A DNA stretch of 64,000 nt from Elusimicrobiota bacterium (GCA_026388095.1 JAPLKL010000069.1:8117-72116); one strand, 5' to 3'. Counted from the first letter of the stretch, positions 45,941 to 56,888 are shown. Notes: generated by a model not told the origin, from the sequence alone. Made by a program: numbers and translations.

Positions 45941-46144
45941 TTAGAGCTTCTTGACGTTCGCGGCGCGCGGTCCCTTGTCGGACTGCTGCACGTCGAACTC
46001 GACGGCCTGATTCTCGGCCAAAGTCTTGAACCCTTCACCGGTGATGGCCGTGTGATGGACGAACAGATCTTTGGAGCCGTCATCCGGCGTGATGAAGCCG
46101 AAGCCCTTCTGGTCATTGAACCACTTCACTTTCCCTGTAGCCAT
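45941..46144 (-). CDS. csp: Cold-shock protein (CspA family; cold-shock OB-fold domain)
   Basis: [34 protein letters not shown]... contains the RNP1 (KGFGFI) and RNP2 (VFVHF-like) motifs. An AT-rich 5' region and a GAGGAA RBS lie upstream. Confidence 0.9.
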
Positions 46145-46232: not shown

Positions 46233-47537
46233 TCACCGTGGAAATATAGGCTCCTTGGCCCGCGGCGCCGCCAGCCGGTCCGCCAGCCGCTCCACGAAGC
46301 CCAGCATCCCATTGAACCCCAAGAACGGCCGCTCGAAGAGCGCGTGGCTCCGGTAGCTCGGGAAGCCGAACTCCAGGATCGGGAAGCGCAGGCCGTGGAA
46401 GTCCTGCTCGCACCAACAGGTCACGAAGAGGTCCAGCGGCTCCTGCGTAAGCTTGCGCACCGCGGGGGAGGAGGAGCGCGGCTCGCAGAGCACCGGGACC
46501 GGGCCGGCCTGGTCCGGCAGATGCTGGGCGCGGCCCCTGACGATGGCTCCCGCCACGGTCATGCCCAGGTCCTCGGCGATGTCCCGGAACCCCTCGAACA
46601 GGTAGGGATCGCCCATGAAGGCGGTCCGGCGGTTCAGGAAGTACTGCGGGATGATCCATTGCAGCCGCGGGATGACCCGGGCCAGCTCCGCCGCGATGAA
46701 GGCCTCGGCCTCCTTGAGCCGGCCCGCGGCCTTGCCCACATCGCGCAGGAAGCGCTCGGTCTTGGGCAGGCCGAAAGGCAGCTCCGTCTCCACCAGAGCC
46801 GCGCCCGTGGCCCGGGCCAGGCTGCGCGCCGCGGCCCGGCCGTAGGGCAAAGAGACGATGAGGTCCGCCTCGGCCACGCGCCGCAAAGCCGCGGCCGGCT
46901 CGCCGCCCAGCCAGACCGAGACCGTCTCCAGGCCCAATGCCGCCAGCATCCGGCGCAGTTCGGCGAGGTTGCCGAAGTGGTCGGCCTCGTTGCGGTCCAT
47001 GAAATAGCCCACGAGCGCGGCTTTCTTGAGCGGCCCTTTCTGGGCCTTGACCCGGCGCTTGCCCCCCAGGTCCAGACCGCGGGCCAGGGCGTTGAGCACC
47101 TGGCCGTAGCCGTCGAGCCAATCGCCGATGAGCGAATCCGGCGCGATGTCGATGGCGGGCTTGGAGAGCTTGCCCGCCAAGGACCGGATGACCCGGCCGT
47201 AGTCCACGCCCGTGATGGAGCACATGGGCAAGGCCGTGACCAGCACCAAGCCCGACTCCTTGAGGCCGTCCACGGTCAGGATGTGGCGCCGGATGATCTC
47301 GTCATGCTCCTTGACCACGCCGCGCGAGCAGACGTTGGTGAAGGCCACGCGGTGGCGGCCGCTGATGCGCAGGAGCGTCGAGCCCAGGTCGTGTCGGCCG
47401 TGGATGAAGTGGGACTTGTAGAGCACGCAGTCCGGGCCGTCCACCAGGATGTAGGCGTCCGGGATCGCGTTGACAGCGAGATAGACCCCCATGAGGGTCG
47501 GGAAGTTCATCGGCTTGCCGTGGCCTTCGGACATCAT
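46233..47537 (-). CDS. Nitrogenase component 1-type (NifD/K/E/N, BchN/B-like) oxidoreductase-family protein
   Basis: 434 aa. Start MMSEGHG overlaps the fusion gene stop as ATGA. Three-domain Rossmann-like architecture with the Oxidored_nitro-like segment ...ILVDGPDCVLYKSHFIHGRHD. This is a family-level call. Confidence 0.6.
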   Translation of the reverse strand: MMSEGHGKPMNFPTLMGVYLAVNAIPDAYILVDGPDCVLYKSHFIHGRHDLGSTLLRISGRHRVAFTNVCSRGVVKEHDEIIRRHILTVDGLKESGLVLVTALPMCSITGVDYGRVIRSLAGKLSKPAIDIAPDSLIGDWLDGYGQVLNALARGLDLGGKRRVKAQKGPLKKAALVGYFMDRNEADHFGNLAELRRMLAALGLETVSVWLGGEPAAALRRVAEADLIVSLPYGRAAARSLARATGAALVETELPFGLPKTERFLRDVGKAAGRLKEAEAFIAAELARVIPRLQWIIPQYFLNRRTAFMGDPYLFEGFRDIAEDLGMTVAGAIVRGRAQHLPDQAGPVPVLCEPRSSSPAVRKLTQEPLDLFVTCWCEQDFHGLRFPILEFGFPSYRSHALFERPFLGFNGMLGFVERLADRLAAPRAKEPIFPR

Positions 47538-49936
47538 TGCCCCCCCATGAAGCGCGCATAGCGCCGCGGCAGCGGCCAGCGGCAGATGCCGTCGAGCTTC
47601 CGCACGCTGCGCACGGCCCCGGCCAGGCCCATCTCGAAGCAGTCCAAGGAGAACTGCGCCTTGCCGGCCTTGGCCAGGCGGGAATCGTAGGTGTACTCGG
47701 AGTAGACCGCCTCGAAGCGGCCCTCGCGCAGCAGGCGGGCAAGCTCCTCGGGCGTCTGGAAGAAGCTCAGCCCCGGGGCCTTCTTCTTGGCCTCCCCGAA
47801 GCAGAGAATCTCCACGCCGAAGCCCATCTCCCGCAGCAGGCGCAAGAGCGGCACGCCCCAGGTCTGCGCCGGGTCGGTCAGGCGCCGCATGTGGAAGCCG
47901 TCGACTACGAAAGCGACGCTGCGGCCGCGCGCCCGGCGGCGCGCCGCGTCCCAGCCCGCGGACAGCTCCTTGGCCGCCCTGGCCAGCGCCGGCTTGGCCC
48001 CGCGCTTGAGGCCCAGTTCCCCAGCCACCGCCCGCACCCAGGCCTGGGTCCCCTCCCAGCCGTAAGGCGCCTCGGGCCGCAGGGTCTTGATGGGCAGGTG
48101 CTCGAAGAACTCCTGGTAGGTCTTGGCATAGGCGCCGTTGGGGTAGAGGACCTGGACCTCGGCAGAGAGATAGGACTGCACCGCAGCCAGGCTCAATGAC
48201 GGCATGACCCGGACGTTGATCTCGACGCCCGCATCCCTCAGCAAGGCGGACAGCTCCTGCAGGGCTTGGCCTTCGGGGAAGCCCACCAGGTTGACGCAGC
48301 GGCTGCGGCGCTGCACCTTGGCGAAGGACGGGTCTTCCTGGAGCCGGCGGAACAGGGCCAGGCACACGTCGAAGTCCTTGCAGCTGGTATGGTTGAGGTA
48401 GACGATGGGGATCTTGGTGCGCTTCTGCCAGCGCGCCACCACGGCCTCCGCGTCGTCGCCGATCACGGTCGGGATGCAGGTCGAGTGCACCACCACCGCC
48501 TCGGCGCGGCCCTCCGCGTGCGCCACGGCCGCGGCCAGGGCCTCGTCGAGCTTGCGTCCGCCGCCATGGATGACGTCGAGGTCGCGGAGGTTGGTCATCA
48601 CGTTCCAGCGGCCCTCGCCCTCGTCGCCCCGAGGCGCCAGGGCGCCTCGGTCCCGCAGGCGCTTGCCTTTCTCCTCTCGCCTGCGGGGCCCGGGGTCTTC
48701 CCGAGGGCCTTCATCATGCCGCTCCACGAAAGGCGGCCAGGGGAACTTGAAGAAGGCCGGCAGGCTGGCATCATTGTAGCTGGGCGTGGCGTAGGAGCAT
48801 TCCAGGTCCTGGTGCCAGACGTTGACCACGGGAGTCGAGCCCTCCAGGCACATGCGCACGTTGCGGCGGGGCTCGAAGTCGCAGAAGAAGTTGCGCCACT
48901 GGTCCGCCGCCCCCCAGACCTGGGAGTTGGGGCCCGGGTCATTGTCCCAGAGCGAGCCGTGCCAGGCCGCGAGGTCCTGCTCCGAAGGCCCCCTGGGGCC
49001 GGGGTCAGGACCGGGGCCAGGATCGGGGCCGGGCCCGGGATCAGGGCCAGGGCCAGGGCCAGGCTGAGCCGGAGCCGCCGATGAGACGACGGCCGGCGCA
49101 GGCTCGACGCCGGATGAGACGAATCCATCGCGGGAGAGCTCATGGAAGCGCTCGTCCTGGAAAGGGGTCGGGACCTTGGCCTTGGCCCGGTCGAAGTCCC
49201 AGAGCCGCTGCGCCAGAGCCAGGACCTTCTTGGAGAACTCGCAGCGCGGCGCGTGCTCCGCCGCGGTCACGCGCCGCCGCTCCGCCTCCCGCACCGCGGC
49301 CTCGCGCGGCAGGAAGGCCAGGACCTTGGTCCCTAGGCCCGCGGCGAAGCGTTCCACCACAGCGCGGTCCGCTCCCGGGTCGCGCAGGTTGCCGACCAGG
49401 CCGCAGAGCGTGATGCCGTTGGCGCTGTAGTTGCGCACCGCCCGGGCGATGTTGTTGACCGCGTAGAGGGACATCAGCTCCTCGGAGGTCACGATGACCA
49501 CCTTGTCCGCGAAGCCCTGGCGCAGGGGCGCGGCGAAGCCGCCGCAGACCACGTCCCCGAGCACGTCGAAGAGCGCCACGTCGTGGCGCCCCTCGCTGAG
49601 GATGCCGGCGCCGTTGAGGAGCTCGATCATCCGGGAGATGCCCCGACCCGCGCAGCCGATGCCCGGCTCCGGCCCCCCGGCCTCCACGCAGTCCACGCCC
49701 AGCCGGCCGCGCACCAGCAGGCCGGAGAGGTCCCGGGCGTTGGCGTCCATGAAGGCCGACTGCTCCACCACGGTCTTGATGGGGCGGCCCTCGGTCAGGG
49801 CCACGGTGGTGTCGTGCTTGGGGTCGCAGCCCACCAGCAGAACCTTCTTGCCCTGCCGGGCGTAGACGGCGGCAAGGTTGGCGGCCAGCGTGGACTTGCC
49901 GATGCCGCCTTTCCCGAAGATCGCTATGCGCTGCAT
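47534..49936 (-). CDS. Fusion protein: NifH-like Fe-protein ATPase + (PGPGPD)n linker + nitrogenase component 1-like domain
   Basis: The N-terminal NifH/BchL/CfbC-like domain has MQRIAIFGKGGIGKST (P-loop), CDPKHD, EPGIGCAGRGI and LGDVVCGGFA (both 4Fe-4S Cys ligands). The C-terminal domain contains ...HSTCIPTVIGDD..., the STCxxExIGDD signature of NifD/K/E/N and BchN/B. The ATG abuts the upstream radical-SAM stop. Confidence 0.75.
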   Translation of the reverse strand: MQRIAIFGKGGIGKSTLAANLAAVYARQGKKVLLVGCDPKHDTTVALTEGRPIKTVVEQSAFMDANARDLSGLLVRGRLGVDCVEAGGPEPGIGCAGRGISRMIELLNGAGILSEGRHDVALFDVLGDVVCGGFAAPLRQGFADKVVIVTSEELMSLYAVNNIARAVRNYSANGITLCGLVGNLRDPGADRAVVERFAAGLGTKVLAFLPREAAVREAERRRVTAAEHAPRCEFSKKVLALAQRLWDFDRAKAKVPTPFQDERFHELSRDGFVSSGVEPAPAVVSSAAPAQPGPGPGPDPGPGPDPGPGPDPGPRGPSEQDLAAWHGSLWDNDPGPNSQVWGAADQWRNFFCDFEPRRNVRMCLEGSTPVVNVWHQDLECSYATPSYNDASLPAFFKFPWPPFVERHDEGPREDPGPRRREEKGKRLRDRGALAPRGDEGEGRWNVMTNLRDLDVIHGGGRKLDEALAAAVAHAEGRAEAVVVHSTCIPTVIGDDAEAVVARWQKRTKIPIVYLNHTSCKDFDVCLALFRRLQEDPSFAKVQRRSRCVNLVGFPEGQALQELSALLRDAGVEINVRVMPSLSLAAVQSYLSAEVQVLYPNGAYAKTYQEFFEHLPIKTLRPEAPYGWEGTQAWVRAVAGELGLKRGAKPALARAAKELSAGWDAARRRARGRSVAFVVDGFHMRRLTDPAQTWGVPLLRLLREMGFGVEILCFGEAKKKAPGLSFFQTPEELARLLREGRFEAVYSEYTYDSRLAKAGKAQFSLDCFEMGLAGAVRSVRKLDGICRWPLPRRYARFMGGQ
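48990..49066. repeat. GC-rich imperfect tandem repeat (~18-nt units) encoding the (PGPGPD)4 linker of the fusion protein
   Basis: ggggccggggtcaggaccggggccaggatcggggccgggcccgggatcagggccagggccagggcc on the plus strand, inside the fusion CDS. Confidence 0.7.
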
Positions 49937-50862
49937 CAGATGTTCCCCTTGAGATTGGTCTTCTTCTTGAGTACAGGGTGGAACTCGTCCCAGCCGAACA
50001 GGTCGGGATACTCCCGCCAGGGCCCCTCGCAGGCCTGGAAGTGCGCGCACTCCGGGCAGCGGGGCCCCTTGGTCTTACCCTCGGTCCGGCGGGTCTTGGT
50101 GTAGTCCTCGATGATGGTGTCGGCGTCGAATATCTTGGTGGCCGGGATGATGCGCTCGGCCACATGGTCCTCGTAGCCCGACATGAAGCAGTAGGGGATG
50201 GCCTCGGTCATGACGCGCCGCCCGGCGGCGATGCCCACGTCGAGCCCCTTCTTGACCCAGGGCTCGATGAGCGTCTTGCGGGCGGTGAGCCATTCCTTGT
50301 TCTGGCCCGCGCGGCCGGTCATGTGCATGAAGGCGAATTGGAACTGCTCCACGCCGAGGGAGACGAGCAGACGGGCCACCTCCGGCAGATCGCGGTAGTT
50401 GACCTTGGTGACCACCGTGTTGGTGATCAAGCGCGCCCCGGCCTTCTTGACGTTGCGCATCCCGGCCGCGGTCTGCAGGAAGCTGCCCGGGACGCCGGTC
50501 AGGAAGTCGTGGAGCTCGGGCCGCGAGCCGTGCAGGGCCGGCCCGAACTCGCTGACCCCGGCCGCGACGAGTTTCTTGACCAGCCCGGCGTAGCAGAGGG
50601 TGCGGCCGTTGGTCTGGATCTGGACGTCCTCGTAGCCCAGGCCGCGGGCGTGGCGCACCGCCTCGATGAGGCCCTTGTGCAGGGAGGGCTCGCCTCCGGT
50701 GAAGACCACTCCCGTGGCCCCGGAGCGGCGGCCCTCGGCCAGGGCCCGGCGCAGCTCGGCCCCGGACTTGGCCGGCAGCTTCTCGCGCTTGTCCCCCTGC
50801 ACGCAGAACCGGCAGAGGTTGTTGCAGGCGAAGCCCACCTTCAAGTCGATGCGCTCGGTCAA
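49936..50862 (-). CDS. Radical SAM protein with C-terminal Cys-rich (SPASM/twitch-like) region, paralogue 3
   Basis: CNNLCRFC (CxxxCxxC), GGEPSLH and a C-terminal CPECAHFQACEGPW are present. The proposed TTG start at 50862 overlaps the upstream stop as TTGA and has a GAGGG RBS. The alternative ATG at 50982 would overlap the upstream gene by 124 nt. Confidence 0.55.
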   Translation of the reverse strand: MTERIDLKVGFACNNLCRFCVQGDKREKLPAKSGAELRRALAEGRRSGATGVVFTGGEPSLHKGLIEAVRHARGLGYEDVQIQTNGRTLCYAGLVKKLVAAGVSEFGPALHGSRPELHDFLTGVPGSFLQTAAGMRNVKKAGARLITNTVVTKVNYRDLPEVARLLVSLGVEQFQFAFMHMTGRAGQNKEWLTARKTLIEPWVKKGLDVGIAAGRRVMTEAIPYCFMSGYEDHVAERIIPATKIFDADTIIEDYTKTRRTEGKTKGPRCPECAHFQACEGPWREYPDLFGWDEFHPVLKKKTNLKGNI

Positions 50863-52082
50863 GACAGGGCCCTCGCGGCTCCGGATTTGAACAGGTCCCA
50901 GGCCCGTTCGCCATAGGGGATCAGCAGCGAGACCAGGTTGCCCCGGCGCGCCACGGTGTACAGGGAGCCGAGGAATATCCATAACGCAAAGGGGATCGTC
51001 TGATAAAAGGTGTATTCCGCCGGGGCCGGCCGGGAAGCCAGCCAGGTCTTGAGCGCGTCCACCTCATCCTGCGTGAGTCCGTCCGAGAAGCGGCCCCCCA
51101 GTTTTTCGGAGAGGTCCTGGTCTTTCTGAAGGGTCCTCCAGGTCTCGTCTGAAAGGACCACTCCGGGCTGGAGGTGCTCGGGCTTGAGCTCCCGCAGGCT
51201 CTCCAGCTCGATGTACCAATGGAAGACCAGGCGCGCCACGGACAGGAACACGCCGAAATTGAACGTCATCTTCAGAGCCCTCACGATGATCGCCAGGATG
51301 TCCCAATGGCCGTAGACCGCGCCCCCGGACATCGCGGCCGCGATGCAGGCCAGCGCCAGATAACCCACCCGGCGGTCGCGCAGGACCATCGTGATCTTGC
51401 CCCAGGCCACGAACATGAGCAGGAAGAGCACCACGTTGCCGAAGGGTCCCCAGGCCAGCTTTTGCGAATAGCGCTGCGAGGTCCCCGTGAGATAGAACAG
51501 GGCGTAGAGGTTCACCACCAAGGTGAGGTACTGGTAGCGGTAGGGCCAAGCCTCGCGGACGCGGACCTCGATGACATCGGCCTTGGCCTTGAGCCAGACC
51601 TTCCAGTCGATCCTCCGCAGCCCGGACGTCCGCAGGAGCAGGTGCCCGACCGTCTCCGCGGCGAAGACCAAGCCGGCCGGCACGAAGATGTTGACCAGCA
51701 GGAGCATGAACAGCAGCAGAGGATAGCCGGGGATGTTGGGGTTGATGAGCGCGACCAGGAAGGCGAAGAGGGTGAAGAGCTTGGCGTCGCCGGCGGGCCA
51801 GATGGCCAGGCGCCACATGGTGAAGGCGGCCGTGAAGCTCAGGGCCATGTGGATGAGCATCTTGGAATAATAGCGCCAGGGCATGTAATGCTCCCCGATG
51901 CGCCCCAGGCGGACGCCCTGGTGGCCCAGGATGGAGTTCCAGAGCAAGAAGGCCAGCCCGGCCGCGCCGGCGAGCAGCCCCAGGACGATCCAGCTGTTGC
52001 GGACCCGGCGCTGCGACCAGTCCTCGTAGGAGACCACCAGGCCCAAGGCCAGGAAAAGGTAGTAGTAGAACTCCGCGATCAC
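50859..52082 (-). CDS. Polytopic membrane protein with N-terminal A24 prepilin-peptidase-like domain
   Basis: A GTG start at 52082 overlaps the upstream radical-SAM stop as GTGA. The track ORF extends further upstream into a low-complexity region that is not real. SYEDWSQRRVRNSWIVLGLL is similar to the A24 motif D-x4-R-x-[IV]-P-N. IWPAGDAKLF is a GGGDVKL-like second-Asp motif. More than 6 TM helices and a ~150-aa soluble C-terminus follow. Confidence 0.6.
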   Translation of the reverse strand: MIAEFYYYLFLALGLVVSYEDWSQRRVRNSWIVLGLLAGAAGLAFLLWNSILGHQGVRLGRIGEHYMPWRYYSKMLIHMALSFTAAFTMWRLAIWPAGDAKLFTLFAFLVALINPNIPGYPLLLFMLLLVNIFVPAGLVFAAETVGHLLLRTSGLRRIDWKVWLKAKADVIEVRVREAWPYRYQYLTLVVNLYALFYLTGTSQRYSQKLAWGPFGNVVLFLLMFVAWGKITMVLRDRRVGYLALACIAAAMSGGAVYGHWDILAIIVRALKMTFNFGVFLSVARLVFHWYIELESLRELKPEHLQPGVVLSDETWRTLQKDQDLSEKLGGRFSDGLTQDEVDALKTWLASRPAPAEYTFYQTIPFALWIFLGSLYTVARRGNLVSLLIPYGERAWDLFKSGAARALS

Positions 52083-53017
52083 GAGTCCTCCCGGACCCGG
52101 CGCGCGACCCAAGCCGGGTCCGTGAAGACGGGGCAGAGTTCCGCCTCCGAGTAGTAGACGCCGAGCTGATAGAGCCCCGCGCAGAGGGCCTGGAGCCGGC
52201 ACTGCGGGCAGCGCTCGCCTTTCTTGTAGGTCCAGGCGCTGCGGTCCTGGACGCGCAGGCCCTTCTCGTCCAGGAAATAGATCCGGCGGCCCTCGTTCTT
52301 GACGAGCTTGCGCGTCTCGGTGGAGCGGTAGGGGAACTCGGACATGAAGCACAAGGGGACCCGCTCCACCCGGAAGGACCGCCCGGTGGCGGCGAGCCAG
52401 GTCATGGCCTTGTGCAGTTCGACCTCGAAGTCCCGCAGACGGGGCACGAGCTCGTCCTTGGCCGCGCTCTCGTTCATCAGGGGGTCGAGATTATTCCAGA
52501 CGAAGTGCCGCACCTGCGGGGCCTGTTCGACGACCCAGCGCACCAGCTCGCTCAGATGCCCGGCGTTGGCCTTGCTGATCACCGTGTTGATGTCCACGCG
52601 GATGCCGAGCTTGCCGGCATGACGCAGGGAGCGCCGGATGTTCTCAAAAGAGTCGGGGTTGGAGGAGAGCCGGGCCTGCACCTCGGGACGGCAGGAGTAG
52701 ATCGAGATGTGCATGTGCGCCAGCCCCGCGCGCGCCAAAGAGCGGAGGTAGCGCGGGTCAGCGGTCTTCTGCCCGTTGGTGATCAGCCGCGGGATGAGCC
52801 TGCGCTCGACCGCGTAGGCCACCAGCCGCGGCAGTTGGGGGAACATGGTGGGCTCGCCGCCGGTCAGGATCACGCCCGAGGCGCCGTCCTTGGCGAAGGA
52901 ATCGATCCAGGTCGCGGCCTCCTTCCAGGAGATGACCCGGCCGTTGGCCGGGTTGGAGCAGAAGAGGCACTTCTGGTTGCAGACCCGGGAGACCTGGAGG
53001 TAGGCGAGCTCAGCCAT
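52079..53017 (-). CDS. Radical SAM protein with C-terminal Cys cluster, paralogue 2
   Basis: CNQKCLFC, GGEPTMFP and a C-terminal CPQCRLQALCAG are present. The start overlaps the upstream gene by 8 nt. Confidence 0.75.
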   Translation of the reverse strand: MAELAYLQVSRVCNQKCLFCSNPANGRVISWKEAATWIDSFAKDGASGVILTGGEPTMFPQLPRLVAYAVERRLIPRLITNGQKTADPRYLRSLARAGLAHMHISIYSCRPEVQARLSSNPDSFENIRRSLRHAGKLGIRVDINTVISKANAGHLSELVRWVVEQAPQVRHFVWNNLDPLMNESAAKDELVPRLRDFEVELHKAMTWLAATGRSFRVERVPLCFMSEFPYRSTETRKLVKNEGRRIYFLDEKGLRVQDRSAWTYKKGERCPQCRLQALCAGLYQLGVYYSEAELCPVFTDPAWVARRVREDS

Positions 53018-54143
53018 GCTTCCTCTTGACGGGCCGCAGCCCTGAGAACCCCTTCTCGCGGACCTCGCGCACGCTCATCCCGTCGCAGCGCGCGGCCCGG
53101 GCGCAGCGCGCGCAGGCCGAGCCCTTGGCGAAGAACCGCGCCCGGACGAAGAACTCGGCGAATCCGACGATGTCGGGCTTGCTCCCCAGCCGGAAGACCT
53201 CGCCGGTCCCCTTCTGCCCCAGGCACAGCGGCCCGACCTTGGCCGGCAGGCGCCCGGCCCGGCGCAGCCGCGCGATGTCCGGACAGAAATCGCGCATGAA
53301 GCACTGCGGGCAGGACGCCCCCAAGCAGCTGGGCGCCTTGCCGCCGCCGAGGTAGCGCCCCAGCAGGCGGCGGCGGCCGCGCACCTCGTCGAGGATCTTC
53401 TCCGGGGACTGGATGAGGGCCTCGAAGCCCTCCAGGTAGTCCGCGCGCAGCCGGTTGGTGAAGATGTGCAGGTCCGGCCGCCGCGCCAGCCTCAGCGCCC
53501 GGTGCAGGCGCGCCAGGTCCCGGGGGTCGGAGAAGTCGCAGAAGAGGTCCTCGCGGTTGCGCCAGGCGTCTCCGAACGGGACCAAGGCCAGGAGGTCGAA
53601 CTCGCGCACGCCCACCTTGATGTAGAACTCGAGGAGCCGGCGCAGGACCGGCAGGTTGAGGCGGTTGATGACCACGTCCACGCTCACGATGAGCCCGGGC
53701 ACGGCCAGGGCCGCGCGCAGGCCGGCCAAGGCCTGGACGAAGGAGCCCGGGACCCGGGTGAGCCGGTCGTGCAGGGCCGCGGTGTGGCCGTGCAGAGAGA
53801 AGGTCACTTCATCGAGCCCGGCCGCGACCGCCGCCTGGAGGAAATCCGGATAGCAGAAGCGGCGCCCGTTGGTGATGGTCTGGATGTGGGTATAGCCGAG
53901 CTCCTTGGCCAGGCCCACCGTCTTCAGGTAGCCGGGGTGGAGGGTGGGCTCGCCGCCGCTCAGGACCACGCGCCGCAGTCCCTGGCGCCGGCCGCGGGCC
54001 AGCTCCCGGCGCAGGGTGTCCCAGGGCACGGTGTCGCCGTCCTGGGCCCCGCGGTCGTGGCAGAAGAGGCAGCGCTGGTTGCAGCACCGGGTGAGCCTCA
54101 CCCAATGCCGCTTCTCGGCCACGCCCTGCCCTGTGTCAGCCAC
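53010..54143 (-). CDS. Radical SAM protein with C-terminal Cys-rich SPASM-like region, paralogue 1
   Basis: CCNQRCLFC, GGEPTLHP, and a C-terminal CLGASCPQCFMRDFCPD plus CARCARAARC are present. Confidence 0.75.
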   Translation of the reverse strand: MADTGQGVAEKRHWVRLTRCCNQRCLFCHDRGAQDGDTVPWDTLRRELARGRRQGLRRVVLSGGEPTLHPGYLKTVGLAKELGYTHIQTITNGRRFCYPDFLQAAVAAGLDEVTFSLHGHTAALHDRLTRVPGSFVQALAGLRAALAVPGLIVSVDVVINRLNLPVLRRLLEFYIKVGVREFDLLALVPFGDAWRNREDLFCDFSDPRDLARLHRALRLARRPDLHIFTNRLRADYLEGFEALIQSPEKILDEVRGRRRLLGRYLGGGKAPSCLGASCPQCFMRDFCPDIARLRRAGRLPAKVGPLCLGQKGTGEVFRLGSKPDIVGFAEFFVRARFFAKGSACARCARAARCDGMSVREVREKGFSGLRPVKRKHG

Positions 54144-54154
54144 CGTGATCGCGC

Positions 54155-55093
54155 CTACCAGGCCCCGTAGAAACGCCGGTCATCCATGGGAGTGGGGACC
54201 GGGCAGTCCTCCTTGCGCACGGCCAGGATCTTGGCCGCCAGGGACTTGATGCTCTTGGCGAAGGGCGACTTGGGCGCGCGTTCGACCACGGTCTTGTGCC
54301 GGGCGAACTCGGCTTCGCGCACGGCCAGGTCGCGCGGCACGTACTCCAGGATGCGGGTCCCGATGATCCGGGCGAAGTGCTCGAGCCGCTTGCGGTCGAC
54401 CTTGCCGTCCTTGAGATTGGCCACCAGGCCCGCGAGGTAGACGCCGTTGGAGGCGTAGGTGCGCACGGACTTGGCGATGTTGTTGGCGGCGTAGAGGGCC
54501 ATGAACTCCTCGGAGACCACGATGACGATCTTCTCCGCGAAGCCCTTGCGCAGGGGCGCGGCGAAGCCGCCGCAGACCACGTCGCCGAGCACGTCGAAGA
54601 CCGCGATGTCATAGCCTCCCCCCCCGAGGACCCCGAGGTCCTGGAAGGCCTCCAGCATCAGCGAGATCCCCCGGCCCGCGCAGCCGACCCCGGGCTCCGG
54701 GCCGCCGGCCTCGGCGCAGTCGATGCCCAGCCGGCCCTTGACCAGGAGGTCGGCGGCCTTGAGCTCGCCGCGGTCGCGGTTGCCGAAGGTCCGGGCGTGC
54801 TTCTCCATGAAGGTCTCGATGAGGCTGCCGTCGACGAGTCCGACCGTGGAGTCGTGCTTGGGGTCGCAGCCGATGTGGAGGACCTTGCGCTTCTGCAGGG
54901 CGTAGACGGTGCTCAAGTTCGCCGCGATGGTGGACTTGCCGATGCCGCCCTTGCCGAAGATGACGATGTTCTGCGTCTTGGCCCTGCGTTTATTCTCGAT
55001 ATTATAATGATACCAATCTGCGGACAGGCGCGGACAGGGCCGCGCGGGGAGGCTCTTTACCGGGATGGCGCAAATTGCCACAATACGGCCCAT
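54155..55093 (-). CDS. NifH/BchL/CfbC-family Fe-protein-like ATPase (standalone). The start codon is uncertain.
   Basis: IVIFGKGGIGKST (P-loop), CDPKHD, EPGVGCAGRGI and LGDVVCGGFA (both Fe-S Cys ligands) are present. An ATG at 55093 has an AGGAG RBS but would overlap the divergent M2 peptidase gene. No canonical start lies close to the P-loop. Confidence 0.65.
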   Translation of the reverse strand: MGRIVAICAIPVKSLPARPCPRLSADWYHYNIENKRRAKTQNIVIFGKGGIGKSTIAANLSTVYALQKRKVLHIGCDPKHDSTVGLVDGSLIETFMEKHARTFGNRDRGELKAADLLVKGRLGIDCAEAGGPEPGVGCAGRGISLMLEAFQDLGVLGGGGYDIAVFDVLGDVVCGGFAAPLRKGFAEKIVIVVSEEFMALYAANNIAKSVRTYASNGVYLAGLVANLKDGKVDRKRLEHFARIIGTRILEYVPRDLAVREAEFARHKTVVERAPKSPFAKSIKSLAAKILAVRKEDCPVPTPMDDRRFYGAW

Positions 55094-56888
55094 GAGAACA
55101 AAACTCCTGCTCGCCGTCTTTTTGGCCCTCCCGGCCGCCGCCCGCGCCGCCACCTTGCAGGAGCAAGCCGCGCAGTTCGTCGCGGACTATTCCCATCTTT
55201 ACCAAGGCGTCTACACCGCGGCCCAGGAAGCCTCCTGGAAAGCCTCCACGGACGTCACCCCCGAGCACGAGGGCCTGCGCACCGGCGCCAACCAGGCCTT
55301 GGCGTCGTTGACCGGCAGCCCCTACATCATCGCCCAGGCCCGGGAATTCCTCAAGCGCAAAGCCGAGCTCGCCCCGCAGACCGTGCGCGAGCTCCAGCGC
55401 ATCTGGTGGATGGCGGCCGAGGACCCCGGCGACATCCCCGAGACCGTGGCCAAGCGCGTGGAGGCGGAGAGCAAGCGGTCCAGCGCCATGGACTCCTTCT
55501 CGTTCTGCGTCGAACGCTCCAGCGACGGCAAGGCCTGCGCCAAGCCCACCACGCCCAACGAGATCGACAACATCCTGGCCTCGACCGCCACGGACGCGGC
55601 CACTCACCTCAAGTACTGGCTCGCCTCCAAGGAGATCGGCCCCGCCCTCAAGCCCGGCCTGGTCAACCTGCGCGGCTTGCGCAACGAGGTGGCCCGCCAC
55701 TTCGACTACCCCTCCTATTTCGACCTCCAGGTGGCCTGGTACGACATGACCACGCCGGAGATGATGGCCATGCTCGAAAGCGTGCTCAAGGACATCCAGC
55801 CCCTCTACGAGCAGGTCCACTGCTACGCCAAGTACGAGCTGGCCAAGCGCTACCATGAGCCCGCGCCCAAAGGCCCCATCCCCGCCCAATGGCTGGGCAA
55901 CCGCTGGGCCCAGGGCTGGCCCGGTCTCGTGGAGGGCGTGGACCTCGACCCCTACTTCAAGGGCCGCACGCCCGAGTGGATCGTCAAGCAGGGCGAAGCC
56001 TTCTACACCTCGATGGGCCTGGCCCCCCTGCCCGACAACTTCTGGCAGAACTCCGACCTCTACCCCGTGGCCCAGAGCCTGCGCAAGAAGAACACCCACG
56101 CCTCGGCCTGGCACATCGACCTCGACCACAACGTGCGCTCCTTGCAGTCCGTCGAGCCCAACGCGGAGTGGTGGGCCACCGTGCACCACGAGCTCGGCCA
56201 CATCTTCTACTTCCTGGCCTATGCGCGGCCCGAGGTGCCCATCCTCCTGCGCGACGGGGCCATGCGCGCCTTCCACGAGGGCTTCGGCGACATGGCCGCC
56301 ATCGCGGCCAACCAGGCGCCTTACCTGCGCCAGGTCGGGGTCCTGCCCAAGGACGCCAAGATCGACGAGAACCGCTGGCTGCTCGCCGAGGCCATGGATT
56401 CCATAGTCTTTCTGCCTTTCTCCGCCGGCACCATGACGCATTGGGAGCGGGACCTCTACGCGGGGGACATGCCTCCCGAACAGTGGAACGCGCGCTGGTG
56501 GCAGTACGCCCGCCAGTACCAGGGCATCGCGCCCCCCGAAACCCGCGGCGAGGAGCTCTGCGACGCCTGCACCAAGACCCACATCAACGACAACCCCGCC
56601 TACTACAACACCTACGCCATCGGCACCGTGTTCAAATACCAGCTGCACGACCACATCTGCCGCAATATCCTGCACCAGGACCCCCGCCGCTGCGACTACT
56701 ACGGCAGCAAGGAAGTCGGCGACTTTCTAAAGGACCTGCTCTCCAAAGGAGCGACGGAGGATTGGCGCGCGCTCATGCGCGAGAAGACCGGCGCGGACCT
56801 CTCCAGCAAGGCCATGATGGACTACTTCAGCCCGCTGATGGACTATCTCAAGAAGGAGAACAAAGGCCGCGCCTGCGGCTGGAAGTAG
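55065..56888 (+). CDS. Peptidase family M2 (angiotensin-converting-enzyme-like peptidyl-dipeptidase), secreted
   Basis: A signal peptide MRTKLLLAVFLALPAAARA is followed by HHELGH...HEGFGD, the M2 HExxH + E zinc-binding signature (compare ACE HHEMGH..HEAIGD). A GGAGG sequence lies upstream of the ATG at 55065. Confidence 0.8.
   Translation: MAQIATIRPMRTKLLLAVFLALPAAARAATLQEQAAQFVADYSHLYQGVYTAAQEASWKASTDVTPEHEGLRTGANQALASLTGSPYIIAQAREFLKRKAELAPQTVRELQRIWWMAAEDPGDIPETVAKRVEAESKRSSAMDSFSFCVERSSDGKACAKPTTPNEIDNILASTATDAATHLKYWLASKEIGPALKPGLVNLRGLRNEVARHFDYPSYFDLQVAWYDMTTPEMMAMLESVLKDIQPLYEQVHCYAKYELAKRYHEPAPKGPIPAQWLGNRWAQGWPGLVEGVDLDPYFKGRTPEWIVKQGEAFYTSMGLAPLPDNFWQNSDLYPVAQSLRKKNTHASAWHIDLDHNVRSLQSVEPNAEWWATVHHELGHIFYFLAYARPEVPILLRDGAMRAFHEGFGDMAAIAANQAPYLRQVGVLPKDAKIDENRWLLAEAMDSIVFLPFSAGTMTHWERDLYAGDMPPEQWNARWWQYARQYQGIAPPETRGEELCDACTKTHINDNPAYYNTYAIGTVFKYQLHDHICRNILHQDPRRCDYYGSKEVGDFLKDLLSKGATEDWRALMREKTGADLSSKAMMDYFSPLMDYLKKENKGRACGWK

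What the first reader, a model, noticed from the sequence alone, without database searches (positions are those of the whole stretch)
47534..49936. Covalent fusion of a Fe-protein (NifH-like) to a nitrogenase component-1-like domain through a (PGPGPD)n repeat linker
In all characterised nitrogenase-like enzymes the ATP-dependent reductase (the NifH, BchL or CfbC role) and the catalytic component (the NifDK, BchNB or CfbD role) are separate proteins. The two cycle between docked and undocked states. Here one 800-aa polypeptide contains both, joined by a flexible Pro/Gly/Asp repeat.

The linker is encoded by a GC-rich 18-nt tandem DNA repeat at 48990-49066, which could vary in copy number. Tethering the two components would alter the association-dissociation cycle and is mechanistically interesting. 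A second, free NifH-like gene in the same operon adds to the puzzle.
Basis: seen in the sequence. Interest (0 to 1): 0.6.

Follow-up and report, generated by a model that had tools for sequence, protein, structure and literature searches.

The report
Nitrogenase-like reductase fused to catalytic subunit
One uninterrupted 800-residue gene really does join a NifH-type ATP-driven electron donor to half of its nitrogenase-like catalytic partner, but this layout recurs in over a hundred protein clusters from public assemblies, belongs to the known, uncharacterised "Group VI" nitrogenase-like family of Elusimicrobia, and was noted in print in 2012.

Summary
Window 47534-49936 (-) is one open frame of 800 aa: a NifH domain (aa 1-268), a disordered Pro/Gly/Ala linker (aa 269-334, including PGPGPGPDPGPGPDPGPGPDPGP from a 6/12/18-nt repeat at 48995-49063), and a NifD/NifE-like domain (aa 335-800).

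It is not an assembly artefact. More than 100 independent protein clusters, mostly from Elusimicrobiota MAGs plus Myxococcota, have the same architecture with unrelated linker sequences.

An nflK-like gene (46233-47537) overlaps the fusion's stop codon (ATGA) and follows the fusion in every related locus, so the polypeptide carries the reductase plus only half of component 1.

The operon is free nflH, three radical-SAM genes, a membrane protein, the fusion and nflK. This is the Group VI nitrogenase-like system of Méheust et al. 2020. Dos Santos et al. [quoted passage not shown]

No fused enzyme has been characterised. The most likely mechanism is a dimerisation-dependent, tethered Fe-protein domain feeding a simple Fe-S cluster on D-K. 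The substrate is unknown.

It is a new member of a known kind, of moderate interest.

The parts
47534..49936 (-). nflH-nflD fusion gene (800 aa plus stop)
   Evidence: Uninterrupted ORF. Fer4_NifH and Oxidored_nitro domains. More than 100 full-length homologues. The start ATG overlaps the upstream stop (TGATG) and has an AAGGGGA ribosome-binding site.
49133..49936 (-). NifH-like (Fe-protein) domain, aa 1-268
48935..49132 (-). Disordered inter-domain linker, aa 269-334
   Evidence: pLDDT below 50 for aa 281-310 and 327-333. Mean column identity is 0.30, against 0.74 for H and 0.55 for D. Length between the flanking conserved residues (F272 to W341) is 47-98 aa among 76 homologues.
48995..49063 (.). 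GC-rich tandem DNA repeat (period 6/12/18) encoding PGPGPGPDPGPGPDPGPGPDPGP
   Evidence: Tandem Repeats Finder and the sequence itself. Copy number differs in close orthologues.
47534..48934 (-). NifD/NifE-like (alpha-type component-1) domain, aa 335-800, with a disordered low-complexity insert at aa 403-441 (48614-48730)
46233..47537 (-). nflK-like beta-type partner (434 aa), start overlapping the fusion's stop (ATGA)
   Evidence: Oxidored_nitro over its full length, E 1e-38. Junction sequence. hhalign to NifK gives 97% probability. A homologue lies directly downstream of the fusion in every related locus examined.
49936..50982 (-). Radical-SAM gene C, immediately upstream and translationally coupled
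   Evidence: Radical_SAM E 8e-21. Best sub-threshold NCBIfam hit is HxsC4, followed by HxsC, TIGR04053 and AhbD. Orthologue adjacent to the fusion in L001, L005 and L092, and in the same gene string in L008.
50982..52082 (-). Polytopic membrane protein of unknown function (start approximate)
   Evidence: Translation. Only a weak Peptidase_A24 hit, E 8e-4. Conserved at this position in L001, L004, L008 and L092.
52079..53017 (-). Radical-SAM gene B
   Evidence: Radical_SAM E 9e-23. Orthologues in L001, L008, L092, L093 and L095.
53010..54143 (-). Radical-SAM gene A
   Evidence: Radical_SAM E 3e-19. Orthologues in L001-L004, L008 and L092.
54155..54976 (-). Free nflH paralogue (core 273 aa). The orthologous ATG start is ACG here (54976-54974) and the frame stays open upstream to 55153
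   Evidence: Fer4_NifH E 2e-77. 57% identical to the fused H domain. P-loop, CAGRG and VCGGF motifs are intact. Start-codon comparison with L001 and L008.

Best explanation
This is a genuine, evolutionarily conserved gene fusion within the Group VI nitrogenase-like (NFL) family of Elusimicrobiota. A complete NifH-type ATPase/[4Fe-4S] reductase domain is joined by a roughly 65-residue disordered linker to the alpha-type (NifD/NifE-like) subunit. That subunit is co-translated with a separate beta-type NflK subunit.

**Shown here**
- The H domain keeps every element of a dimerisation-dependent Fe protein: the deviant Walker A with its signature lysine, switch I and II, both cluster cysteines, and the docking arginine.
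- The D domain keeps the alphaCys88 and alphaCys154 positions but has a conserved proline where the FeMo-cofactor ligand Cys275 would be.
- NflK has one invariant cysteine.
- K always follows the fusion in related loci.
- The unit is embedded with three radical-SAM genes and a membrane protein.

**Inferred**
- Two H domains bridge a [4Fe-4S] cluster, bind MgATP, dock on the D-K pseudo-twofold face and pass single electrons to a simple inter-subunit Fe-S cluster. That cluster then reduces an unknown small molecule made or tailored by the neighbouring radical-SAM enzymes. The published guess is a tetrapyrrole-type cofactor.
- The two H domains come either from two fusion chains or from one fusion chain plus the free NflH.
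- The tether fixes the stoichiometry at one H per D-K and keeps the reductase at high local concentration. It is long enough (about 240 Å contour length) not to prevent docking and undocking.
For: **The fusion is real**
- Open frame and domains.
- More than 100 fused homologues at 30-84% identity, from ENA, JGI, NCBI and Logan assemblies.
- Linker sequences differ while the flanks are conserved.

**Group VI identity**
- Homologues come from genomes named or sampled in Méheust et al.: GWA2_69_24, GWA2_66_18, RBG_16_66_12.
- The radical-SAM-rich context matches.
- The family description fits.

**Catalytic competence of H**
- Invariant K9, P-loop, C95, R98, C131.

**The D and K cluster sites**
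- hhalign alignments and alignment A2.

**K as obligate partner**
- ATGA start/stop overlap.
- K-like ORF directly downstream of the fusion in all 14 related loci whose sequence extends past the fusion.

**Need for two H domains**
- A separate clade has H-H-D triple fusions in which both H domains keep the P-loop and switch II cysteine; the CAGRG motif is also in both domains in five of the six checked, and reads CGGRG in the first domain of P0118. The one locus examined, L007, has no free H nearby.

**The fused module can stand alone**
- L010, L011 (a cultured Pseudenhygromyxa), L093 and L095 have no free H within the flanks read.

**Prior literature on the arrangement**
-.
Against: - No biochemical data exist for any Group VI or fused enzyme.
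- The substrate is unknown. The window itself has no tetrapyrrole gene. TP_methylase and B12-binding genes occur only in related loci.
- The radical-SAM genes score best, well below threshold, against HxsC-type peptide maturases as well as AhbD/NirJ.
- Inter-domain geometry could not be examined. The structure tool returns no coordinates and no multimer prediction, and pTM 0.67 is uninformative.
- The alphaCys62 position is not a cysteine. C352 lies in a 23-residue insertion and is not invariant, so the cluster type is uncertain.
- The alignment to NifD stops before His442.
Confidence: 0.7

Rival explanations
1. Assembly or sequencing artefact: two adjacent genes (nflH and nflD) were joined by an error inside the GC-rich repeat.
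For: The junction is a low-complexity, GC-rich repeat, the kind of tract where indel errors occur. A few D-only homologues exist on short contigs, namely P0062 and P0070.
Against: More than 100 independent assemblies have the same single ORF, most with non-repetitive linkers. Dos Santos 2012 saw the arrangement in isolate genomes. No start codon or ribosome-binding-site context was looked for at the D-domain boundary. The conserved D-domain sequence begins immediately in frame after the linker.
Confidence: 0.02
2. Obligate heterodimeric reductase: in this operon the fused H domain pairs with the free NflH, so each D-K unit carries one tethered and one free protomer, rather than two fusion chains pairing.
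For: A free nflH is in the same gene string in the window and in L001, L008, L002/L009, L003, L004, L092 and L094. In L094 it lies directly upstream of the fusion. In the window, L001 and L008 the unfused D-K pair that follows the free H in relatives is absent within the sequence read, which leaves the free H without a nearby partner of its own. In a rough NJ tree the free H nests inside the fused-H radiation. The H-H-D fusions show that two H domains per D is a selected state elsewhere.
Against: The fusion plus K occurs with no free H within about 5.4-10 kb in L010, L011, L093 and L095. In L002-L004, L009 and L092 the free H is followed by its own unfused D gene, with a K as well in L002-L004 and L009, so it probably serves that partner. 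In this window the free copy has lost the orthologous ATG (now ACG), so it may be poorly expressed.
Confidence: 0.2
3. The D-K pair is a NifEN-like assembly scaffold or maturase rather than a substrate reductase. The fused H domain would then act as a cluster-insertion or maturation ATPase, as NifH does on NifEN.
For: The best NCBIfam hit for the D domain is NifE (E 1e-16, far below cut-off). NifE is also among the best PDB sequence and fold matches. Dos Santos 2012 called the fused partner 'nifE-like'. A 2025 Nature paper leaves the placement of Group VI relative to VnfEN unresolved.
Confidence: 0.1

Closest known systems
Group VI nitrogenase-like (NFL) systems of Elusimicrobia (Méheust et al. 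2020, bioRxiv 10.1101/765248 / ISME J; reviewed in Chem Rev 2026, PMC13474568 section 7)
   Same: - NifH-like protein with the Cys97/Cys132 equivalents and Walker A.
- Highly divergent D and K lacking FeMo-cofactor ligands.
- Clustering with many radical-SAM genes.
- Elusimicrobia origin, with homologues from the very genomes used in that study.
   Different: The searchable text of those papers describes nifH, nifD and nifK as separate genes and never mentions the fusion. Here H and D are one polypeptide and only K is separate.
[quoted passage not shown] 2012 (BMC Genomics 13:162, PMC3464626)
   Same: Exactly the same gene logic: H fused N-terminally to the alpha-type subunit, with the beta-type subunit encoded next.
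   Different: That report concerns Archaea, Firmicutes and Deltaproteobacteria. It was 'data not shown', and the fused sequences were excluded from their tree. Whether those are the same clade as the Elusimicrobia proteins was not tested here.
Methylthio-alkane reductase MarHDK (PDB 9d9u / 9fmg)
   Different: Mar has separate H, D and K. By the PDB entry title and the paper title it uses nitrogenase-type clusters. Here only 18% identity is shared, the alphaCys275 position is Pro, and H is fused to D.
DPOR (BchL + BchNB) and CfbCD
   Same: ATP-dependent NifH-like dimer donating electrons to a simple [4Fe-4S] cluster on a nitrogenase-like catalytic component that lacks a FeMo-cofactor. The H domain scores 274 bits against CfbC and 191 bits against BchL.
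   Different: All scores are below the family cut-offs. In DPOR and CfbCD the components are separate proteins. CfbD is homomeric, whereas here there is a D/K pair.
H-H-D triple fusions (P0113, P0116-P0120; locus L007)
   Same: The reductase is covalently joined to the alpha-type subunit, and a separate K gene follows in the one locus read, L007.
   Different: Two tandem NifH domains, about 1080-1106 aa for the full-length members. They form a different NifH clade in a rough tree, so this is probably an independent fusion. No literature was found on them.

Membership tests
Group VI NFL (Méheust 2020) | NifH-like protein with a GXGXXG/Walker A motif and the two [4Fe-4S] cysteines (Cys97, Cys132 in Av numbering) | tested here: met
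   GKGGIGKS, C95 (CAGRG) and C131 (VCGGF) are present in the fused H domain and invariant in 76 homologues. The same motifs are present in the free NflH.
Group VI NFL (Méheust 2020) | D and K highly divergent from NifD/NifK and lacking the FeMo-cofactor ligands Cys275 and His442 | tested here: inconclusive
   hhalign to a canonical NifD gives 19% identity, and Cys275 aligns to the conserved Pro599. The alignment ends before His442, so that position was not assessed.
Group VI NFL (Méheust 2020) | Incomplete set of P-cluster cysteines (at most four of six) | tested here: met
   - D domain: alphaCys88 and alphaCys154 equivalents are conserved (C380, C487). The alphaCys62 position is not Cys.
- K: C37 is invariant and C106 is present in most members. 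Assigning C37 to betaCys95 is a manual inference; hhalign did not cover it.
Group VI NFL (Méheust 2020) | Co-location with multiple radical-SAM genes | tested here: met
   Three Radical_SAM genes lie between the free nflH and the fusion. The same holds in related loci.
Group VI NFL (Méheust 2020) | Close relationship to the Elusimicrobia lineage IV/V sequences that define the group | tested here: met
   - Full-length homologues at 46-84% identity are from Elusimicrobia MAGs. They include GWA2_69_24 (P0063, named in the paper) and GWA2_66_18 (L002).
- No formal tree against reference groups I-V was built.
Group VI NFL (Méheust 2020) | No NifB/NifEN cofactor-assembly genes | tested here: inconclusive
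   - None of the three radical-SAM genes has NifB among its 25 best NCBIfam matches.
- tblastn finds no other D/K-like genes in the 64-kb window.
- The rest of the genome is not available.
Canonical nitrogenase NifHDK | NifH, NifD and NifK reach the equivalog thresholds, and the FeMo-cofactor ligand Cys275 is present | tested here: not met
   nifH scores 276 bits against a cut-off of 394. nifD scores 30 bits against 654. nifK scores 22 bits against 427. Cys275 is replaced by Pro.
DPOR / COR (BchLNB, BchXYZ) | Equivalog-level match to BchL/X, BchN/Y and BchB/Z | tested here: not met
   Scores against cut-offs: BchL 191/345, BchX 170/331, BchB 36/490, BchN 22/420. For K: BchB 34.5/490.
CfbCD (F430 biosynthesis) | CfbC-level match and a single homomeric CfbD catalytic subunit | tested here: not met
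   CfbC scores 273.7 bits against a cut-off of 402. Here there are two different Oxidored_nitro subunits, D and K.
nifH-nifE-like fusion + nifN-like gene (Dos Santos 2012) | A single ORF with NifH at the N-terminus and a NifD/E-like domain at the C-terminus, followed by a NifK/N-like gene | tested here: met
   Clade identity with their examples was not tested.

The most novel reading that the evidence does not exclude
The fused enzyme may be a self-contained nitrogenase-like machine that never releases its reductase. In an (H-D·K)2 assembly the two tethered H domains would form a single Fe-protein dimer that alternates between the two catalytic halves. In this operon, each tethered H might instead recruit the free NflH as an asymmetric partner. 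Together with the H-H-D proteins this would give a natural series (free H2; H-D; H-H-D) for testing whether Fe-protein dissociation and half-sites behaviour are intrinsic to the nitrogenase mechanism. It would also offer a template for single-chain engineered nitrogenase components.
Probability: 0.2. Interest if true: 0.7.

Novelty: new member of a known kind. Interest (0 to 1): 0.4.

Why it matters
In every studied nitrogenase-type enzyme the ATP-driven reductase must dock, transfer one electron and leave. From general knowledge of nitrogenase kinetics, that dissociation is commonly taken as the slow step. A naturally tethered reductase fixes the stoichiometry and the local concentration, so it is a ready-made test of how much of that cycle is obligatory.

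It is also relevant to attempts to simplify nitrogenase-like systems for heterologous expression.

It affects bookkeeping as well. Censuses of Group VI systems that count 'NflH, NflD, NflK' genes may misassign fused proteins. Public annotations call these proteins 'AAA family ATPase', 'nitrogenase iron protein NifH' or 'nitrogenase component 1'.

The function of the whole radical-SAM-rich pathway remains unknown. A cultured carrier of a related long-linker fusion, Pseudenhygromyxa sp. WMMC2535 (P0107, L011), might make it experimentally accessible.

Tried and rejected
- **Metagenome locus scan with the 76-sequence alignment.** The tool chose generic NifH motifs, so nearly all 80 loci were ordinary nifH or nifHDK. 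Only L012, L013, L032 and L062 were partly useful. Canonical NifD and NifK from L041 were reused as references for hhalign.
- **Genome scan with the single protein.** It found only 6 loci.
- **AlphaFold of the H-H-D protein P0120 with a 6-sequence alignment.** pLDDT 60.7 and pTM 0.38, so it was uninformative about an intramolecular H-H pseudo-dimer.
- **AlphaFold of the window protein.** It gives good domains, but no coordinates or multimer prediction are available.
- **Foldseek against afdb50.** The library was not available.
- **Search for a small precursor-peptide gene downstream of nflK.** This was prompted by the HxsC-like radical-SAM hits. The only convincing ORF is a cold-shock protein (45941-46144), followed by a strong terminator-like hairpin.
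- **Rfam and tRNA scans of the window.** They found nothing.
- **Literature searches for the Pfam domain pair and for NflH/NflD 'fusion'.** Nothing turned up beyond Dos Santos 2012.
- **hhalign of NflK to NifK.** It did not cover the N-terminal cysteine region, so the C37 to betaCys95/BchB-Asp36 assignment rests on manual motif comparison.


Full report
**1. The observation**

The minus-strand ORF at 47534-49936 is uninterrupted for 800 codons. The longest possible ORF begins at a GTG at 50050. Homologues begin MQ(K/R)I, and the ATG at 49936 has an AAGGGGA ribosome-binding site 6 nt upstream.

Pfam places Fer4_NifH at aa 2-269 (E 9e-81) and Oxidored_nitro at aa 445-719 (E 1e-27). NCBIfam gives only sub-threshold matches to nifH, CfbC, BchL, NifE and NifD.

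Tandem Repeats Finder reports a 6/12/18-nt repeat at 48995-49063 (3.5 copies of 18 nt, 77% matches). It encodes PGPGPGPDPGPGPDPGPGPDPGP.

A second NifH-like gene lies at 54155-54976 on the same strand. It is 57% identical to the fused H domain.

**2. Not an artefact**

A search of 5.8 billion proteins returned more than 100 clusters with both domains in one chain, 750-1100 aa long and 30-84% identical. They come from ENA, JGI, NCBI and Logan assemblies. Most named ones are Elusimicrobia MAGs, plus a Deltaproteobacteria MAG and the cultured myxobacterium Pseudenhygromyxa sp. WMMC2535.

Across 76 aligned homologues the linker between conserved F272 and W341 is 47-98 aa (median 62, 68 here). It is Ala/Pro/Arg/Gly-rich and has a mean column identity of 0.30, against 0.74 for the H domain and 0.55 for the D domain.

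PGPGPD-like units occur only in the closest sub-clade and in different numbers. A DNA alignment with three orthologous loci shows indels confined to this tract, next to well-conserved D-domain sequence.

AlphaFold2 (76-sequence alignment, mean pLDDT 83) gives two confident domains and pLDDT below 50 for aa 281-310 and 327-333. It also gives low confidence for a low-complexity insert in the D domain, aa 411-441.

**3.

Directly downstream, the frame at 46233-47537 encodes a 434-aa protein with a full-length Oxidored_nitro match (E 1e-38). Its ATG overlaps the fusion's TGA (CAATGATG). hhalign against a canonical NifK gives 97% probability. The fusion therefore carries the reductase plus only the alpha-type half of component 1.

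The gene string on the minus strand is:
- free nflH;
- radical-SAM A (53010-54143);
- radical-SAM B (52079-53017);
- a polytopic membrane protein (about 50982-52082, with only a weak Peptidase_A24 hit);
- radical-SAM C (49936-50982);
- the H-D fusion;
- nflK.

A cold-shock gene (45941-46144) and a strong terminator-like hairpin (45923-45892) follow. The flanks are housekeeping genes (rplM, rpsI, lpxB, lpxI), syntenic with locus L008.

**4. Related loci**

A K homologue follows the fusion in every locus whose sequence extends past it: L001-L004, L007-L013 and L092-L095. L032, an apparently fused ORF from the metagenome scan, shows the same arrangement.

- The block radical-SAM A, radical-SAM B, membrane protein, radical-SAM C, H-D, K is conserved down to 53% identity in L092.
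- L001 and L008 match the window.
- In L002/L009, L003 and L004 the free H is followed by its own unfused D-K pair, then radical-SAM A and, two or more genes further on, H-D and K. The window lineage lacks that unfused pair within 64 kb.
- In L094 (GWA2_69_24) the free H lies directly upstream of H-D and K.
- L010, L011 (Pseudenhygromyxa), L093 (two tandem H-D + K modules) and L095 have no free H within the flanks read.
- Some related loci add TP_methylase, B12-binding radical-SAM and HxsD genes.

**5. Residues**

*H domain.* The following are invariant in 76 homologues:
- G8-K9-G10-G11-x-G13-K14-S15-T16, including the signature lysine. In NifH-type ATPases (established knowledge) that lysine acts across the dimer interface.
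- C37-D38-P39-K40 (switch I).
- D124-x-L-G-D128-x-V-C131-G-x-F (switch II and the second cluster cysteine).
- C95 and R98, which correspond to NifH Cys97 and the docking residue Arg100.

*D domain.* hhalign against a canonical NifD taken from locus L041 gives 96% probability:
- VVNVWHQDLEC380 aligns with MIHISHGPVGC88.
- HSTC487IPTVIGDD aligns with QSEC154PIGLIGDD.
- The Cys275 position aligns with the nearly invariant Pro599.
- The Cys62 position has no cysteine. C352 lies in a 23-residue insertion and is replaced by Ala in some members.

*K.* C37 and D50 are invariant, and C106 is present in most members.

This 2 + 1 (or 2) cysteine pattern is the one Dos Santos et al. described for several nitrogenase-like clades. 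It fits a simple inter-subunit Fe-S cluster rather than a P-cluster plus cofactor.

**6. How it probably works**

*Shown.* There is a complete Fe-protein domain, an alpha/beta-type catalytic pair lacking the FeMo-cofactor cysteine, translational coupling, and conserved linkage to radical-SAM enzymes.

*Inferred.* ATP hydrolysis and cluster binding in this ATPase class need a dimer, so two H domains must meet. A linker of about 65 residues has a contour length of about 240 Å. It could therefore reach either docking face of an alpha2beta2-type tetramer, in cis or in trans. The tether would then fix one H per D-K and raise local concentration without preventing the dock-undock cycle.

*Support for the two-H requirement.* A separate set of proteins (P0113, P0116-P0120) has two tandem H domains before the D-like domain; the full-length members are 1080-1106 aa. 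Both domains keep the P-loop and switch II cysteine, and five of the six keep CAGRG in both; the first domain of P0118 reads CGGRG. One such gene (L007) is followed by K, has no free H nearby, and sits next to a Peripla_BP_2/FecCD/ABC importer.

*Origins.* In a rough NJ tree the window's free H and its orthologues nest within the fused-H radiation. The H-H-D domains form a separate clade, which suggests at least two independent fusions (distance tree only).

*Substrate.* It is unknown. The published hypothesis is a tetrapyrrole-type cofactor. The window's radical-SAM genes score best, far below threshold, against HxsC/HxsC4, with AhbD, NirJ and MoaA also in the sub-threshold lists. This does not discriminate between hypotheses.

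**7. Comparison with what is known**

The locus fits Group VI NFL systems. The searchable text and supplementary legends of Méheust et al., and a comprehensive 2026 review, do not mention a fusion.

Dos Santos et al. [quoted passage not shown] They removed 'NifHD/E' fusions from their phylogeny. The arrangement is therefore known to exist, but it is undescribed in detail and uncharacterised.

A profile-free search of 1.84 billion cluster representatives with the D domain found 795 relatives (288 at E ≤ 1e-30). Of the best 150, about 19 are H-D fusions, including the two closest matches, and the rest are unfused.

**8. Verdict**

This is a new member of a known but uncharacterised kind. Interest is moderate. 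The fusion itself would not surprise a specialist who knows the 2012 note. The natural series of free H, H-D and H-H-D is nonetheless a usable handle on the Fe-protein cycle, and Group VI remains functionally unknown.

Noticed in passing
window 54974-54976 (and upstream to 55153), minus strand: The free nflH has ACG where its orthologues in L001 and L008 have the ATG start (MQNIV...). A 1-nt indel upstream removes the in-frame stop seen in the orthologues, so the frame is open to an ATG at 55093 and a GTG at 55153. That region would overlap the 5' end of the divergent Peptidase_M2 gene. The cause could be a non-canonical start, an N-terminal extension, early decay or a sequencing error.
   Followed up: partly
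L007 10001-13321 (P0120); also P0113, P0116-P0119: H-H-D triple fusions: two tandem NifH domains, each with a P-loop and a VCGGF motif, fused to a NifD-like domain. CAGRG is also in both domains except in P0118, whose first domain reads CGGRG. The full-length members are 1080-1106 aa. In L007 the gene is followed by a K-like gene, preceded by a Peripla_BP_2/FecCD/ABC_tran importer, and has no free NifH nearby. No mention was found in the literature searched. The AlphaFold model was too poor (pLDDT 61) to show an intramolecular H-H dimer.
   Followed up: partly
P0122, P0123, P0128, P0134, P0142, P0151, P0197 (unfused Group VI D proteins); P0104, P0093, P0085 and others (long fusions): Unfused D homologues carry a 140-285 aa N-terminal extension that is not NifH-like; several of those printed begin MS.LFPEL. 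The longer fusions (about 860-1060 aa) show weak similarity to this extension between their H and D domains (best E 4e-7). This suggests that H was fused onto a D that already had the extension, and that the roughly 800-aa forms such as the window's later replaced it with a short disordered linker.
   Followed up: partly
window 49936-54143; L092 439-1065: All three radical-SAM proteins score best, far below cut-off, against the His-Xaa-Ser maturases HxsC/HxsC4, and less well against AhbD/NirJ/MoaA. Related locus L092 encodes an HxsD-family protein in the same cluster. TP_methylase genes occur in L009 and L092, and B12-binding genes in L092, L094 and L095. The pathway product could be peptide-derived rather than a tetrapyrrole. 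No precursor-peptide gene was found in the one intergenic region searched, downstream of nflK.
   Followed up: partly
window 48614-48730 (aa 403-441 of the fusion): A charged, low-complexity insertion (HDEGPREDPGPRRREEKGKRLRDRGALAPRGDEGEGR) lies inside the D domain. It is predicted to be disordered and is highly variable among homologues (column identity 0.15).
   Followed up: no
L093 6219-13531: Two H-D + K modules in tandem in Elusimicrobia bacterium RBG_16_66_12. The first appears split or frameshifted in the gene calls.
   Followed up: no
window 55065-56888 (+): A full-length Peptidase_M2 (angiotensin-converting-enzyme family) gene, E 2e-108, is divergently oriented from the NFL operon.
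   Followed up: no
window 50982-52082 (-): A conserved polytopic membrane protein is embedded between the radical-SAM genes, with only a weak prepilin-peptidase (A24) resemblance. It is conserved in L001, L004, L008 and L092, which suggests a membrane-associated step or substrate.
   Followed up: no
L008 7591-10001 compared with window 49936-50982: In the 79%-identical relative L008, an RF3-like GTPase gene and a methyltransferase gene are inserted between radical-SAM C and the fusion. In the window these two genes are directly coupled.
   Followed up: no
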